From Peribolospora baueri (Eukaryota), in NCBI GenBank assembly GCA_029717555.1, contig JAMDHS010000021.1, positions 1-64,000 of the forward strand: 64,000 nt of DNA, in the 5' to 3' direction. Positions 1-51,600 of the stretch are shown one piece after another; the first letter of the stretch is position 1; every line of letters begins with the position of its first letter. The notes under the pieces are model-generated. The model saw only the letters and a list, made by a program, of their open reading frames with translations, had not been told where the DNA came from and searched no databases. The position numbers were made by a program, and so were the translations under genes.

Positions 1-587
1 TGATCGTTGTGCTTACATGAGCTCGAAGAGATGGAAAGCCCACTCACTGGAGAGAAGCGCTTCTCGTGCCTGCTTGTTCCTTAGAGCGACCTTATGGACG
101 TTTTCTGCGTGCAATTTCTGTTGAAGAGGTCAGCGCGATGAAACGTGCTGCATCTCGACGCCATATAAGAAGAGACAAGGCGACCAGACGCTTACGTCTG
201 CGACCGGCGTGAAAGAAAAAAAAGACAAACCAGAGCAAGTCAGAGTGGAGCCCTTGCCTTGAAAGGCCAGCTGGTCGCACTCACAGTTTTGCTTGAAGCA
301 CTCCTGAGAACAGAAGAACGAGTCCTTCACGTCGAGCCTGCAGCGACGAGTAGCGTGGCAGAGGGCAGACCTGATGAGCAGGTCTGCACGTCAAGAGGAT
401 GAGGTCCGAAGCGCTCGACGAAGCGCTACCTTTCGCGGCTATTGGAACCCGCTCACTCTTTGCACTTGGGACACTCCAGCCTCGTCGCCGGCTTCCCGCA
501 TCCTTCACTCTTACATATCCGCTCAGCGGGAGTCGCAGGAGTTTTGACCTCGGGGACGGTTGAAGATGATTCGCTGGGTGTCGTCAT
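1..587 (-). CDS. MAP1: Methionine aminopeptidase 1, N-terminal zinc-finger exons (gene continues beyond window start)
   Basis: Exons 587-457, 337-285, 197-196 (2 nt) and 117-48 splice to MTTPSE...CKSEGCGKPATRLECPKCKELDVKDSFFCSQECFKQNYKLHAENVHK. This is the C6H2 zinc finger typical of MetAP1. All introns are GT-AG. Confidence 0.85.
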
Positions 588-15733: not shown

Positions 15734-16974
15734 TTAAACGAGGCGGCGGAAGATGCGGGGGGCGGCGCAGTTGTCGACGCAGTGAAGGAGATGAACTGAC
15801 GGTGGGCAAGATGACGACAGCACGGTAGAGGACACGAAAAAAAGAAAAGCAAAGAGGCAGAGATGTTGGACAGTCGGCAAACGGAGGGTACGGATGCTTG
15901 GAAAGACCCGGAACAAATACGTAGAGCACTCACAGCTATCATGGACGCACCCGCCCAGTTGAGCATGGAATGGACAGGCGGACAGATAAGGAAGGAGAAG
16001 GTGAGCACAAGGATAAGCACTTATTGTGAGAGGCATTCGTGTTCAAGATGCCCGATACTCGTGCCACGGTTCAGCAAGCATGCGACCGGACATATGGTTT
16101 CTGCTGGTACGAGAGCGTGTGCCCTTACCGAAGGCGGAGAGAGACGAAAGGAAAGGCATTCCGGCCCACCCTGCCGGATCCCACCTAACATGGCACACAG
16201 CACGCTAACCCGAGGCCGAAGAGACGCCCGAATACTCACAGTTCCTCAACGCAGTCCTCACCCTTGAAGCCACGACCCTCCTCAATACGCTTTTCGCATT
16301 CCTCGAAGTGGTGCTTGACGGAGGCGCAAGCCTTGGAGTTTTCGCATTCTTGGGTGGCAGTGGAAAAGGCCGTCGAGAGTGCAGCAGGGGCACAAACATT
16401 AAGGGAAAGAAGCGAAAGTATTTGAGCTGACGATAACTCCACGGCCGAGAAACGACGGTACGGTGGAAATTGCTGTCATCGGTTTCGCAAAGGACGTTGT
16501 GCTCGGTCGGACCACATGATCCGCAAAGCCCCCGTCCAGCGACTTTGTGACCAACACATATGACTAGTTGATACTCACCTTCCCTTATGGCGGGGGCGGG
16601 CTGATGCAGAAGACAAATAGCGCACGAAGAAGGAGGCGAAAGGGAAACAGATCAGGGCCGCGCTGAAGAGAGCAGGTCAGACAGCTGGAAGAGAAACCAG
16701 GACGGTCGACACTCACGTCCTCTGGCTCTTCCTCGCCCTCTTCCTCGCCCATCTCCTCCTCACTGCCCCCCAAATCGGCGCCCTTCTCTCCTCCGTTGCC
16801 GCCGCCGTCCGCACTCACTCTCTCCCACGATTCGCTGTCCTCCCCCTCCTTCTCATCGTCCGCGTGGGCAACGGGAAGAACATCGAAGACGAAAGTGGAG
16901 AAGGGGGCGAAAACGGAGTCAGTGTGCGTGACCACGTCACCGGCCGCGCTGTCACTGGAGCTGTTGCTGTGCAT
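15734..16974 (-). CDS. QCR6: Cytochrome bc1 complex hinge subunit 6
   Basis: Exons 16974-16717, 16600-16579, 16348-16240, 15935-15934 (2 nt) and 15795-15734 give an acidic N-terminus then EEPEDPAPAIREECENSKACASVKHHFEECEKRIEEGRGFKGEDCVEELFHLLHCVDNCAAPRIFRRLV*. Confidence 0.93.
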
Positions 16975-48672: not shown

Positions 48673-51600
48673 CTAGCACGTCTGCCACCCTTCTTGCGTC
48701 AGCCGTTGCTTCGGCCACGGTCGTCCGAACTGCAGGCGCGTTGTGGAAAAGACGAAAGAAAAAAAAAAATTTGGGTCAGGATGTCATCATCAGGGGGACC
48801 CGCCCCGTAACCACTCACGCCTCCCGTCGCCGCCTCGCCCTGCCAGAAGGTGATGTTCGGGTTGTTGTACACCTCCGAATACTGTGTGCCCCGACGACGA
48901 AGCCGAAGCGAGTGAGCAGAACGAAGATGCAAACAAACCGTCGCCTCGGTTTACCTTGTTGATCCAGTCCTTCGTCGGGAAACCTTTAGGATCGCAGCCC
49001 CAGTTGATCGCGTTTTTCGGTTGGTACACTCGGACTGTGCGAGTTCGAACCGACCGATCACCGACCGACGGAGGAGCGAATGAACGGTCAGATCACCAGT
49101 CAACGAACGCCACCATCGTCCCACCACGTCTTCCTTCACTCACTGTAGTCGACCTTCATATGCACCGGGAACGTGAGTTTGGCCCAGCTGACGAACGACA
49201 AAGTTCCGATTTCCATCAGCAAAAACCGCCAAGACCAACGATCTCATATCCATCTACGCGCCATGGGCAGACGGGACCAAGCAAGACTCACTTGGCCGGT
49301 TGAAAGCCGTGTGACATGCCGAGGTTGAACATGATGTACTGGAAGCCCGGTCAAGCCGGTCGCACCCCCACCGGTTCGTCAGCATAAAAAAAAAAAAAAA
49401 AAAGGCGAGGTGGGCTGAAACAAGGCTCACCATGGGCTCCTGAGGGACCGGACGAGCGCTGATGCCGACACGAGCGTCAGCGTCCAGGGCCGCCGAGGTG
49501 ACCCTCCACGACTGTTGACCGTTGTTCTGTCGAAAGGAGAGCGAGCGACCGTCATTCAGTCAAACCGCCGCGATCATGACCCGCTCCGAAACTTCAACAT
49601 CCACTCGCACCCGCTCCCGCCCCCACTCACCAGCCACGTGATGTACCCATTCAAACCAGGCTCGTACTCCACTCCATATCTCGCAAACATCTGGTCCGTC
49701 AGCTGGTAGGCAGAGTTGTTCGCCGGCGCCGTCCCGGATATGGCTTGTTGAAGTGCCGAACCGGTGTACGAGTTCATTTGGGCACCCGGTTGGAGAAATT
49801 CGTAGGCTCCAGGAGTGTTGAGAATGGTGTAGTTCCTGTTGAACGGAGCGAGCCTGAAAGGGGCATCAAGGGTAGTGACGGCGCAAGGAGCACGTCAGCC
49901 CCGGGTTGACACGGATGAGGGGCGAGCGCCTGCCATCGGTCACTCACTGAAGCGACTGAGAGAGAGCGCCGCCGGTCGTCGCGAACGCTTGTGCTTCGAA
50001 AACTGTTTCGAGTTGCCGGGGGAGAGCAGAGGGTGAGTATATGAAACGCCACGCAAGTCGAGACCGGGACAGGGTGAGGCCGGCTCACCGTCAATCTCGG
50101 GCGCGCTCCTGCCAACAAACGTCCCGTCCGGGTTTGTTGGCCCAGGATGGTCCTCGCCGGGGCAGGTGCAAGCAGAGAGCCTTTGTCCGGGCAGATTGCT
50201 GAGAATGGTGCCGTACTGGCCGATGAGCTGCGCGTCGGCGGGAGTCTTGTTGGCGAAGGATTGGTTGGGGAGGACGCCGACGTCGCAGCTGTCGTACGAA
50301 TACGGCCAGAGACCCTGTGGGAGAAGAAAAGCGAAGAGAACGGGGATCGGTCGGTCGGGAGAAAGTGAGGGAGGAGGAGGAGGACAGTCCTCTTACTCAC
50401 GTCTGTCGTCGCACCGTATCCAGCCCTGCCGAGCTGATTTTCAACGCGGGACAGGGGACGTGTGAGCAGGGCGAGACGAGAGAGTCGTAGGTAGCAACGT
50501 AGTACTCACGTTGCCCATCGCCCAGAAAGCGGGCCACAATCCGGAGACGTAGGGGCTGCCGGGCAGTTGGATGGCAGCCCTGAACGAAGAAAGCAAGGCG
50601 AGGTCGAGGTCATGACATGGTCCCCAACAACAAACACGAACCGGTCGGAGCGAATCACGAGCTGACTCACTCCATGTAGCCACCGGTGAAGCAAAACTTG
50701 TTCCAGCTTTGGAGCATGCCGGATTTGAAGTTGAGGTCGTGGCCTTGGCGCTCGTCCATGGTGATGACGAGCGATCCGTTGGAGGTGGTGATCTGGTCGG
50801 GTGTGTACCACTCCGCGTCTTGCGTCGCCCAGTAGTAAAAGTCTGGCGCCTCCCAGTAGGGGTCGTCGCCTGGGTAGAAGGATCGGCCATCGGTGTTGAA
50901 CTCGTCGCTGTAGAGGCGGATGAGGGTCACGACGCGAGACGAGATGGACAGGACAAACGGGAGTGAGCACGGGCGACGTAACGCGTGGACAGATGACAAA
51001 AGATATAGCTCACCTGAAAACAAGCTGGTATTGGGTTTTTCCATCGCTGGAGATTGCAAGATGGCCGACCAGGTAAGAAGCGGTCGAGGCGGATCGCCAA
51101 ACAACATAAAAAGAGACAGACGAGCGGACTCACAAGCCAGTGCGGGTGTACGCTTCTTTTGGGGTGTCACGGTCGACGAGGTCGAACATGTTTGGAACGT
51201 CGGGGACCTGGCCGGTGGAGTTTGCGATCTGTTGATCACGGTGGGCGGGCGAGCGGGTCAGTGAGAGGGTATGAAGGAGGAAGAAAATAGGACACCGTTT
51301 TTTCTTCTCACCAGGCTCGAGTCATGTGAAGTCCTGAAATAGCTCAGGATGGGGTATCCTGCGAAGAGCTGGAGAGGAAGAGATGGGGATGGAAAGGCAG
51401 AGGCATGAACGACGAGAAGGTGGGGCGACTGGGAGGAGGATGGACGACGTGGATTTATGTGCGCACCATGATCAAGCCGCAGCCGAGGATGAGGAGGGAG
51501 CCGAGGTTCATCAACCCCCTGGCGGTGAAGACGGAGCCATTGTCGTCCTTGCCGTCCCTGAGGGCGCGGTCGTCGTCGTCGTCGTCGGGCCCGCTGGTGC

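What the first reader, a model, noticed from the sequence alone, without database searches (positions are those of the whole stretch)
15928..15938. Second obligatory 2-nt micro-exon (CT) in QCR6
Seen: the minus strand reads gaTAG CT GTGAGT (exon 15935-15934), inside what otherwise looks like one ~440-nt intron. The upstream exon ends GAG GAA CT and the last exon starts TT CAT CTC. Adding CT gives CTC TTT CAT, i.e. CVEELFHLLHC, the conserved hinge-protein motif. Direct joining frameshifts and removes the last helix and its Cys. Inference: two independent 2-nt exons within 16 kb suggest this genome routinely uses extreme micro-exons, probably via strict intron definition, and may contain many unannotated ones.
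Basis: partly seen in the sequence, partly recalled or inferred. Interest (0 to 1): 0.8.

Follow-up and report, generated by a model that had tools for sequence, protein, structure and literature searches.

The report
Conserved two-base exon in fungal QCR6
A fungal gene for a small respiratory-chain protein stays in frame only if two bases (CT) standing alone between two ordinary introns are kept in the mRNA, and the same two-base exon sits at the same spot in most related fungi, so it is real and old but of a kind already described.

Summary
On the minus strand, TAG|CT|GTGAGT (CT = 15935-15934) lies inside the 444 bases between the third coding exon of a QCR6/UCR_hinge gene (ends 16240) and its last exon (starts 15795). 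Joining those exons directly shifts the frame. Adding CT gives CVEELFHLLHC, the only compact GT-AG solution my enumeration found.

No RNA run was listed and no genome is held, so there is no transcript proof for this organism. The comparative evidence is strong. Of 80 related metagenome loci, 73 carry YAG|NT|GTRNGT at the same codon position. The second base is always T (first base of Phe). The first base varies only as the wobble base of the preceding Leu/Phe/Ile codon. Sixty-one of these loci follow it with a 4-base exon. In one relative, a spliced contig product and an unspliced one differ exactly here.

Two-base exons are already counted in Coprinopsis (57), and one-base exons are described in Fusarium and Arabidopsis. 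This is therefore a new member of a known kind. Nine of 17 named basidiomycete QCR6 protein records are wrong at exactly this spot.

The scan had earlier noted one-base and 12-base exons elsewhere in this genome, but not this one.

The parts
16717..16974 (-). Exon A: start codon (ATG 16974-16972) and acidic N-terminal region, ending ...EEPED
   Evidence: the whole five-exon CDS is 453 bases, 150 codons plus one terminal stop. The junction PED|PAPAI matches named homologues such as P0157.
16601..16716 (-). Intron 1 (116 bases), GTGAGT...CAG
   Evidence: Read from the sequence; needed for the open frame.
16579..16600 (-). Exon B, 22 bases (PAPAIRE + first base of E)
   Evidence: located it. Its translation joins exon C as PAPAIREECENSK, matching the homologues' P.I.EEC.
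16349..16578 (-). Intron 2 (230 bases), GTGAGT...AAG
   Evidence: Read from the sequence.
16240..16348 (-). Exon C, 109 bases: CENSKACASVKHHFEECEKRIEEGRGFKGEDCVEE + CT
   Evidence: translation. PF02320 UCR_hinge, 38.7 bits, profile positions 10-44 of 65.
15936..16239 (-). Intron a (304 bases), phase 2 in the Leu codon; GTGAGT...gaTAG; CTCAAC 24 bases before the TAG as a possible branch site (by eye)
   Evidence: An intron at the same position is present in 73 of 80 related loci, and 13 unspliced ORF products end at EEL/EEM.
15934..15935 (-). The 2-base exon CT: third base of Leu (CT-C) and first base of Phe (T-TT)
   Evidence: A homologous N-T exon is found in 73 of 80 loci.
15796..15933 (-). 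Intron b (138 bases), phase 1 in the Phe codon; GTGAGT...gtCAG
   Evidence: Relatives carry an intron at the same position; it stands alone in L010, L025 and L026.
15734..15795 (-). Last exon: TT CAT CTC... = (F)HLLHCVDNCAAPRIFRRLV, stop TAA
   Evidence: translation; it aligns to profile positions 56-74; the equivalent helix is present in solved bc1 subunit 6 structures.

Best explanation
The CT at 15935-15934 is a real, constitutively used 2-base exon of the QCR6 gene (cytochrome bc1 subunit 6, 'hinge protein'). Two ordinary GT-AG introns lie two bases apart: one in phase 2 of the Leu codon after EE, the other in phase 1 of the next Phe codon. The mRNA keeps the C and T between them and reads ...GAG GAA CTC TTT CAT..., that is CVEELFHLLHC.

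Shown here: the anatomy, the frame requirement, and the conservation of the same arrangement in relatives.

Inferred: each intron is recognised across itself (intron definition). The 3' splice site of the first intron and the 5' splice site of the second are only two bases apart, so they cannot both be occupied at once. The two introns are therefore removed one after the other, in either order. If the upstream intron goes first, this is resplicing at a regenerated 5' site.

The pair of introns is old. It occurs in agaric-like and Malassezia-like relatives. Some lineages have lost the upstream intron precisely, which fused the two bases to the exon before it.
For: (1) Anatomy: TAG|CT|GTGAGT, both donors a perfect GTGAGT, and only one GT-AG solution.

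(2) Profile scores: 107.8 bits in one domain with CT. In-frame read-through or other-acceptor models score 80.9-86.5 bits split into two domains. Alternative donors score 55.7-82.6. The direct join scores 60.5.

(3) Chance: a strict motif with T as second base arose in 31 of 5000 shuffles of the interval.

Of these, 73 have YAG|NT|GTRNGT at the same codon position: 12 with two introns like the window, and 61 followed by a 4-base exon TCCA/TTCA. Three have only the downstream intron, 2 have no intron here, and 2 contigs are cut. Collapsed at 90% nucleotide identity, that is 40 of 46 clusters. In shuffles of the same regions the strict motif appeared in 12 of 7400.

(5) Coding-type variation: the second base is T in all 73. 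The first base is A/G after TT in Leu lineages, C/T after TT in Phe lineages, any base after CT, and A/T after AT. The introns around it differ in length (29-77 and 41-88).

(6) Intron retention cannot be the conserved answer: the downstream intron reads through open and in frame in 0 of 73 loci.

(7) Transcript-type evidence in a relative: P0018 (Logan contig) and P0153 (ENA contig) share their first 81 residues, including a retained upstream intron. After EDCVEE, P0153 reads into the intron (LYV...) and P0018 reads FFHLAHC....

(8) Intronless relatives (L013, L024) read CTC TTC CAC contiguously.

(9) Precedent: 57 two-base exons in 50 genes of Coprinopsis cinerea, from long reads.
Against: There is no RNA evidence for this organism: no run was listed and read laying could not be used.

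The introns here (304 and 138 bases) are much longer than in the relatives (medians 56 and 71), so they are not alignable copies.

The branch sites are weak matches, picked by eye.

In the window, read-through from CT into the last exon happens to be open and in frame, so a 46-residue insertion isoform cannot be excluded.

In 12 of the 73 loci another compact parse exists without the 2-base exon. Ten of these use a donor two bases downstream that gives the same protein.

My choice among parses favoured consensus splice sites, and the loci are not phylogenetically independent.

GC-AG and AT-AC introns were not enumerated for two-intron models.

The DNA of the P0018 contig could not be seen.
Confidence: 0.9

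Rival explanations
1. Only the upstream intron is removed (acceptor at 15936/15935, or the AAG at 15897/15896), and the rest is read through into the last exon. The protein would then carry a 34- to 46-residue insertion between EEL and HLLHC.
For:: these models are open and in frame in the window. Gene predictors produce similar products for relatives (P0053, P0062, P0134).
Against:: these models score 80.9-86.5 bits, split into two domains, against 107.8 in one. The inserted stretch is pyrimidine-tract translation. It begins with a perfect GTGAGT. In relatives the same read-through is open and in frame in 0 of 73 loci.
Confidence: 0.04
2. The gene is broken here, either as a pseudogene or through an assembly error of two bases. 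The real splice is 16240>15795, and the TAG CT GTGAGT is a chance motif.
For: The bare motif is expected about 1.5 times per window by chance. No RNA or second assembly was available.
Against: The motif sits at the exact codon position where 73 of 80 relatives have the same arrangement. It supplies exactly the bases that intronless relatives have there. The rest of the CDS is intact: 150 codons with one terminal stop.
Confidence: 0.03
3. The frame is restored by something other than two GT-AG introns: a non-canonical splice site pair, a nested (stwintron-like) intron, RNA editing or a ribosomal frameshift.
For: I did not enumerate GC-AG or AT-AC pairs for two-intron models. Nothing else supports it.
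Against: A fully canonical solution exists and is conserved. Each intron has complete ends of its own and no splice-site motif is interrupted. Rfam finds nothing in the introns.
Confidence: 0.02

Closest known systems
[quoted passage not shown]
   Same: It is a basidiomycete with internal exons of 2 bases (57 exons in 50 genes), whose omission breaks the frame. It is the same kind of object.
   Different: That paper gives counts, not this gene. The held supplements contain neither 'hinge' nor 'QCR6' (one supplement was too large to be read). No cross-species conservation of a single 2-base exon is described in the passages I saw.
One-base exon of Fusarium CYP621A P450 genes (PMC12940212; abstract and passages read)
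   Same: A fungal ultra-short exon between two ordinary introns, inside a conserved motif. It was found by frame logic plus alignment of orthologues, in an intron longer than usual.
   Different: One base rather than two; an ascomycete P450 rather than QCR6. That case has read-archive transcript support, which this one lacks.
One-base exon of Arabidopsis APC11 (PMC4674806; passages read)
   Same: It is constitutive and needed for the frame. The authors argue that exon definition is impossible and propose intron definition with the two introns removed one after another. That is the mechanism I infer here.
   Different: It is a plant gene and was tested by cDNA and protoplast assays.
Zero-nucleotide recursive splice sites (ratchet points) of Drosophila (bioRxiv 10.1101/006163; search listing and start of abstract only)
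   Same: A 3' splice site lies directly beside a 5' splice site inside what looks like one long intron, and removal is stepwise.
   Different: There nothing stays in the mRNA and the purpose is to subdivide very long introns. Here two bases stay and are coding.
Conserved, often misannotated microexons of plants (PMC8831610; abstract only)
   Same: Exons of 15 bases or fewer that are conserved and missed by annotation.
   Different: Plants, other genes, and no claim about QCR6.

Membership tests
UCR_hinge / QCR6 / UQCRH (Pfam PF02320) | Match to the family profile above the curated cut-off | tested here: met
   exon C alone scores 38.7 bits (cut-off 27.2), E 1.1e-9, profile positions 10-44 of 65.
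UCR_hinge / QCR6 / UQCRH (Pfam PF02320) | C-terminal helix with the paired cysteines (..EE[LF]FH..HC...C.AP.[LI]F..L) | tested here: met
   Met only when CT is included; 107.8 bits, one domain covering positions 13-74 of a 75-column profile built from 36 homologues. The equivalent helix of homologue P0008 aligns to solved subunit 6 chains such as 7rja_H.
UCR_hinge / QCR6 / UQCRH (Pfam PF02320) | Acidic N-terminal region | tested here: met
   Translation of exon A is rich in D/E and ends EEMGEEEGEEEPED, like named homologues. Judged by eye, not scored.
UCR_hinge / QCR6 / UQCRH (Pfam PF02320) | Subunit of the mitochondrial bc1 complex | not testable with these tools
   Needs biochemistry.
Ultra-short (3 bases or fewer) spliceosomal exon | Canonical 3' splice site directly before and canonical 5' splice site directly after | tested here: met
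   TAG|CT|GTGAGT. In relatives: TAG 41 and CAG 32; GTATGT 26, GTACGT 19, GTGCGT 10, GTAAGT 9, GTGAGT 9.
Ultra-short (3 bases or fewer) spliceosomal exon | Required for the reading frame and for a conserved motif | tested here: met
Ultra-short (3 bases or fewer) spliceosomal exon | Conserved at the same codon position in orthologues | tested here: met
   73 of 80 loci and 40 of 46 clusters. Shuffle control: 12 of 7400.
Ultra-short (3 bases or fewer) spliceosomal exon | Present in the mature mRNA | not testable with these tools
   No RNA run was listed. The only evidence is indirect and from a relative: P0018 against P0153.
Ultra-short (3 bases or fewer) spliceosomal exon | A usable branch site in each flanking intron | tested here: inconclusive
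   By eye only: CTCAAC lies 24 bases before the TAG and CTCTAC 30 bases before the CAG. Other introns of the window show CTCGAC, CTCAC and CTGAC.
Zero-nucleotide recursive splice site | AG and GT directly juxtaposed, nothing retained in the mRNA | tested here: not met
   Two bases lie between them and are needed in the mRNA.
Stwintron (intron nested in a splice-site motif of another intron) | The inner intron interrupts the donor, acceptor or branch motif of the outer one | tested here: not met
   Both introns have complete GTGAGT and YAG ends of their own. The definition of a stwintron is recalled; no paper on it was read.

The most novel reading that the evidence does not exclude
The CT exon is one copy of an ancient pair of introns set two bases apart. 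The pair has been kept in QCR6 since before agaric-like and smut/Malassezia-like basidiomycetes diverged. In the agaric-like lineage a third intron turns it into a 2-base exon followed by a 4-base exon, so three introns fall within nine coding bases. In one Malassezia-like relative the flanking introns are only 29 and 41 bases. QCR6 would then be a natural test gene for how an intron-defining spliceosome handles exons shorter than the footprint of its own snRNPs, through obligatory ordered removal. It would also be a ready marker for annotation errors. A bolder and less likely extension is that skipping of the exon is used to throttle complex III assembly.
Probability: 0.6. Interest if true: 0.55.

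Novelty: new member of a known kind. Interest (0 to 1): 0.42.

Why it matters
It shows that a housekeeping respiratory gene depends on an exon of two bases, and that this is a long-kept gene structure across many basidiomycetes and not a one-off.

The practical consequence is annotation. Of 17 named basidiomycete QCR6 protein records that I inspected, 9 are wrong at exactly this spot: FH is missing, YV or CT is inserted, or the last helix is dropped. Many ORF products in large protein collections stop at EEL. Gene finders that cannot place exons of 1-4 bases will keep truncating or distorting such proteins.

The tandem 2-base and 4-base exons, and the lineages that lost one intron precisely, also give clean material for studying intron loss and the order of splicing.

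Tried and rejected
- RNA evidence: the look-up of sequencing runs on window:12000-20000, kind rna, listed no RNA holder.
- Own genome: none is held, so no genome-wide scan and no search for a second QCR6 copy was possible.
I obtained sources and names from the search for homologous proteins instead.
- The other YAG-NN-GTRAGT in the window (50405-50395, minus strand) is inside an ordinary 33-base exon of a KRE6-like gene and is not a 2-base exon.
- Rfam found nothing credible in the gene's introns: best E 0.58, far below gathering scores.
- Single-intron models, alternative donors and alternative acceptors were all enumerated and scored, and all are worse.
- Literature. None of the 15 papers listed (of 362 holding at least two terms) combines QCR6, UQCRH or hinge protein with microexon. 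Phrases for 'two-base exon' found 4 papers, none relevant. 'Recursive splicing' plus Cryptococcus gave 3 papers, none being the preprint that an earlier scan note cites. I therefore found no printed description of this QCR6 exon, but correct public gene models evidently exist.
- Earlier scan notes near this place, or on these words: nothing.

Full report
**What is there.** The minus strand between about 16974 and 15734 carries a five-exon gene.

| Part | Coordinates | Notes |
|---|---|---|
| Exon A | 16974-16717 | ATG and acidic region |
| Exon B | 16600-16579 | 22 bases |
| Exon C | 16348-16240 | 109 bases |
| 2-base exon | 15935-15934 | CT |
| Last exon | 15795-15734 | ends in TAA |

Joined, they give 453 bases: 150 codons and one terminal stop. 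Exon C alone matches Pfam UCR_hinge (PF02320) at 38.7 bits against a cut-off of 27.2, over profile positions 10-44 of 65. The gene is therefore QCR6/UQCRH, subunit 6 of the cytochrome bc1 complex.

**The observation.**
- gaTAG CT GTGAGT lies at 15940-15928.
- Exon C ends GAG GAA CT and is followed by GTGAGT.
- The last exon starts TT CAT CTC after gtCAG.
- The interval between the two exons is 444 bases: 304 + 2 + 138.
- The direct join is out of frame and replaces the last helix with ...SSPSLRRQ....

**Are there other ways to restore the frame?** I enumerated single-intron models.
- With the donor at 16240, only the acceptors at 16019, 15935 and 15896 run into the last exon in frame. They insert 34 to 81 residues.
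- There is no AG between 15896 and 15797.
- Donors further upstream combined with the acceptor at 15795 delete conserved residues.

I then enumerated chains of up to three GT-AG introns with internal exons of 1-8 bases. Exactly one solution for the window yields the motif: CT, CT, introns of 304 and 138 bases, donors GTGAGT and GTGAGT, acceptors TAG and CAG.

Against a profile I built from the last 75 residues of 36 full-length homologues, the models score as follows.

| Model | Bits | Domains |
|---|---|---|
| With the CT exon | 107.8 | one |
| In-frame read-through or other acceptors | 80.9-86.5 | two |
| Alternative donors with acceptor 15795 | 55.7-82.6 | not read out (whole-protein scores only) |
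| Direct join | 60.5 | one, last helix lost |

GC-AG and AT-AC pairs were considered only for single-intron models (GC) or not at all (AT-AC).

**Chance.** The bare motif proves nothing.
- YAG-NN-GTRAGT occurs twice in the window on both strands, against 1.5 expected.
- The other copy, at 50405, sits inside an ordinary 33-base exon.
- A loose AG-NN-GT appears in 2844 of 5000 shuffles of the 444-base interval.
- A strict YAG-NN-GTRNGT appears in 78 of 5000 shuffles, and with T as second base in 31 of 5000.

**Relatives.** No genome is held for the window and no RNA run was listed, so I turned to related DNA.

An alignment of exon C with 18 homologous proteins (A1) was used to scan the metagenome contigs.

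I parsed every locus with the same enumerator.

| Result | Loci |
|---|---|
| A 2-base exon at exactly the window's codon position | 73 |
| — two introns, like the window (L001-L009, L011, L014, L016) | 12 |
| — followed by a 4-base exon TCCA or TTCA and a third intron, phase 2 in the His codon | 61 |
| Only the downstream intron (L010, L025, L026), upstream exon ending TTCT or TTGT | 3 |
| No intron here (L013, L024), reading CTC TTC CAC contiguously | 2 |
| Contig cut (L012, L076) | 2 |

In the 61 loci, three introns fall within nine coding bases. In the three loci with only the downstream intron, the upstream exon ends as if the upstream intron had been lost precisely. L012 still shows TAG|GT|GTAAGT and TAG|TCCA|GTGAGT before its end.

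Collapsed at 90% nucleotide identity, 40 of 46 clusters have the 2-base exon.

All 73 are flanked by TAG (41) or CAG (32) and by GTATGT, GTACGT, GTGCGT, GTAAGT or GTGAGT. The flanking introns have medians of 56 and 71 bases, ranging 29-77 and 41-88. In dinucleotide shuffles of the same regions the strict motif arose in 12 of 7400 and the loose one in 678 of 7400.

**The variation looks like coding sequence.** By cluster:
- The second base is T in every case; it is the first base of the Phe codon.
- After TT the first base is A or G in the 17 clusters whose protein has Leu, and C or T in the 3 whose protein has Phe.
- After CT it is any of the four bases (19 clusters including the window).
- After AT it is A or T, giving Ile (2 clusters).
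- L012, which is cut, shows AT + G, giving Met.

T at the last exon position before a donor is not, as I recall, what splice signals favour; it is what the protein requires.

**Caveats on the comparative result.**
- Where several parses existed I chose the one with the best consensus sites.
- The loci are related to one another.
- In 12 of the 73 loci another compact parse exists without a 2-base exon. Ten use a donor two bases downstream that gives the same protein. Two (L031, L033) are a poor 1-base plus 3-base parse.
- Retention of the downstream intron is not a conserved alternative: its length is a multiple of three in 10 of 73 loci, and it is open in none.

**Evidence from protein collections.** A search of 1.84 billion representatives with homologue P0003 returned 200 proteins at E up to 0.001, of which 150 were listed.

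Many are ORF calls on unspliced eukaryote DNA, so their tails reveal intron positions.
- Thirteen end exactly at EEL or EEM, as the window would (CT|GTGA reads L, stop).
- Others read LYV, LCV or MCV, which is the upstream intron.
- Others read EEFCK, which is TTT T|GTAAG, the downstream intron alone.

A second search gave sources and names.
- P0018 (Logan contig, 912 bases) and P0153 (ENA contig, 903 bases) share their first 81 residues, including translated intron upstream of exon C.
- After EDCVEE, P0153 reads into the intron (LYVCHV...), as locus L007 does.
- P0018 instead continues FFHLAHCALECAAPKLFAKLV.
- The simplest reading is a partly spliced transcript of a Malassezia-like relative in which the 2-base exon has been used. 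I could not see its DNA.

**Public annotation.** Of 17 named basidiomycete QCR6 records that I printed, 8 carry the proper [LMF]FH..HC:
- Tilletiopsis washingtonensis;
- two records of Ustilago trichophora;
- Lentinula lateritia, L. edodes and L. aciculospora;
- Flagelloscypha;
- Collybia nuda.

Nine are aberrant at exactly this spot:
- MYV in two Lentinula records;
- LCT in Moniliophthora roreri;
- FH missing in two L. edodes records, Psilocybe cubensis, Lentinus tigrinus and Panus rudis;
- the whole helix missing in Malassezia pachydermatis.

Correct gene models with these tiny exons are therefore already public, and wrong ones are about as common.

**Who the relatives are.** By best hit among 29 named proteins over about 45 residues:
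- the three-intron loci are agaric-like (60-95% identity for the whole group, which includes three loci without that structure);
- six of the L001-L009 loci best match Malassezia pachydermatis (81%); the other three (L004, L005, L006) best match Tilletiopsis or Ustilago at 68%;
- L010 is identical to Tilletiopsis washingtonensis;
- the window's own model is nearest to Ustilago trichophora at only 64%.

This fits earlier scan notes that call this genome smut-related, which I did not test further. These are rough placements of unnamed contigs.

A review says Malassezia genes contain very short introns (PMC7426719, one passage). That fits the 29- and 41-base introns of L005 and L006.

**Mechanism.**

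Shown:
- two complete GT-AG introns two bases apart;
- the two bases are needed for the frame;
- they are conserved as coding bases.

Inferred:
- Exon definition across two bases is impossible, so each intron must be recognised across itself.
- The 3' site of intron a and the 5' site of intron b are too close to be occupied together, so the introns leave one after the other.
- This is the model proposed for the one-base exon of Arabidopsis APC11 (PMC4674806, Discussion passages). It is in line with the intron-definition model for microexons in work on PRP-40 (PMC8378409, passages).
- The order is unknown. If intron a goes first, the event resembles recursive splicing at a regenerated 5' site.
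- Branch sites are by eye only: CTCAAC 24 bases before the TAG and CTCTAC 30 bases before the CAG.

**Comparison with what is known.**
- The long-read annotation of Coprinopsis cinerea counts 13 one-base, 57 two-base and 27 three-base internal exons (PMC12230235, passages). Its held supplements name neither hinge nor QCR6, and one file was too large to read.
- A one-base exon is described with read support in Fusarium CYP621A (PMC12940212, abstract and passages). That paper cites 2-5 base exons in Arabidopsis, Drosophila and human.
- My searches found no paper linking QCR6 or the hinge protein with microexons, and nothing relevant under phrases for a two-base exon.

The kind is known. The case, its depth of conservation and the tandem 2-base plus 4-base arrangement appear undescribed in the library I could search.

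The probable 'first' 2-base exon is AC at 197-196 on the minus strand.
- It is flanked by a long pyrimidine tract, CAG, and GTAAGC.
- It lies in a MAP1-like gene. The first exon matches zf-C6H2 at E 0.0015, below the cut-off, over profile positions 1-18.
- The direct join there creates TAA. With AC the text reads ...CFKQNYKLH... by my own reading.
- Earlier notes of this scan report one-base exon candidates and a 12-base exon in other pieces of the same genome. I did not check them.

Routine use of very short exons in this genome is therefore plausible, but it was not measured.

**Verdict.** It is a new member of a known kind, of moderate interest, mainly for the depth of conservation and the annotation errors it explains.

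Noticed in passing
window 190-199, minus strand (AC at 197-196); gene about 587 down to below 1: Probable second 2-base exon: ...ttttttctttcacgccggtcgCAG|AC|GTAAGC in a MAP1-like gene with an N-terminal zf-C6H2 finger. The upstream exon ends AAC T. The next exon starts AAA TTG CAC, so the direct join makes TAA, while AC gives N-Y-K-L-H. The gene runs off the window's end.
   Followed up: partly
L015, L017-L080 (61 loci), for example L015 offsets 0-200 after the EE codons: In agaric-like QCR6 genes the 2-base exon is followed by a 4-base exon (TCCA or TTCA) and a third intron. Three introns of about 50-80 bases interrupt nine coding bases (L-F-H).
   Followed up: yes
L005 and L006, first 75 bases after the EE codons: The two introns flanking the 2-base exon are only 29 and 41 bases long, each with a CTGAC/CTAAC-like box. 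If spliced as drawn, these are extremely short fungal introns.
   Followed up: partly
L010, L025, L026: Relatives with only the downstream intron have an upstream exon ending in exactly the two extra bases (TTCT, TTGT), as expected from precise loss of the upstream intron. In L037, L069, L071-L075, L077, L078 and L080 a donor two bases downstream would give the same protein, which is a possible intermediate state.
   Followed up: partly
Proteins P0170, P0171, P0172, P0182, P0183, P0191, P0195, P0196, P0198 (named NCBI records): Nine of 17 named basidiomycete QCR6 records are mis-modelled exactly at the micro-exon site: YV or CT inserted, FH missing, or the last helix skipped.
   Followed up: yes
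window 50395-50405 and 50000-50900, minus strand: The only other YAG-NN-GTRAGT in the window lies inside a normal 33-base exon ([11 protein letters not shown]) of a KRE6/SKN1-like glucan-synthesis gene that has several short exons. The gene name is my reading of the translation and was not tested.
   Followed up: partly
window 16579-16600, minus strand: The same QCR6 gene also has a 22-base exon (PAPAIRE-), so four introns interrupt a 150-codon gene.
   Followed up: yes
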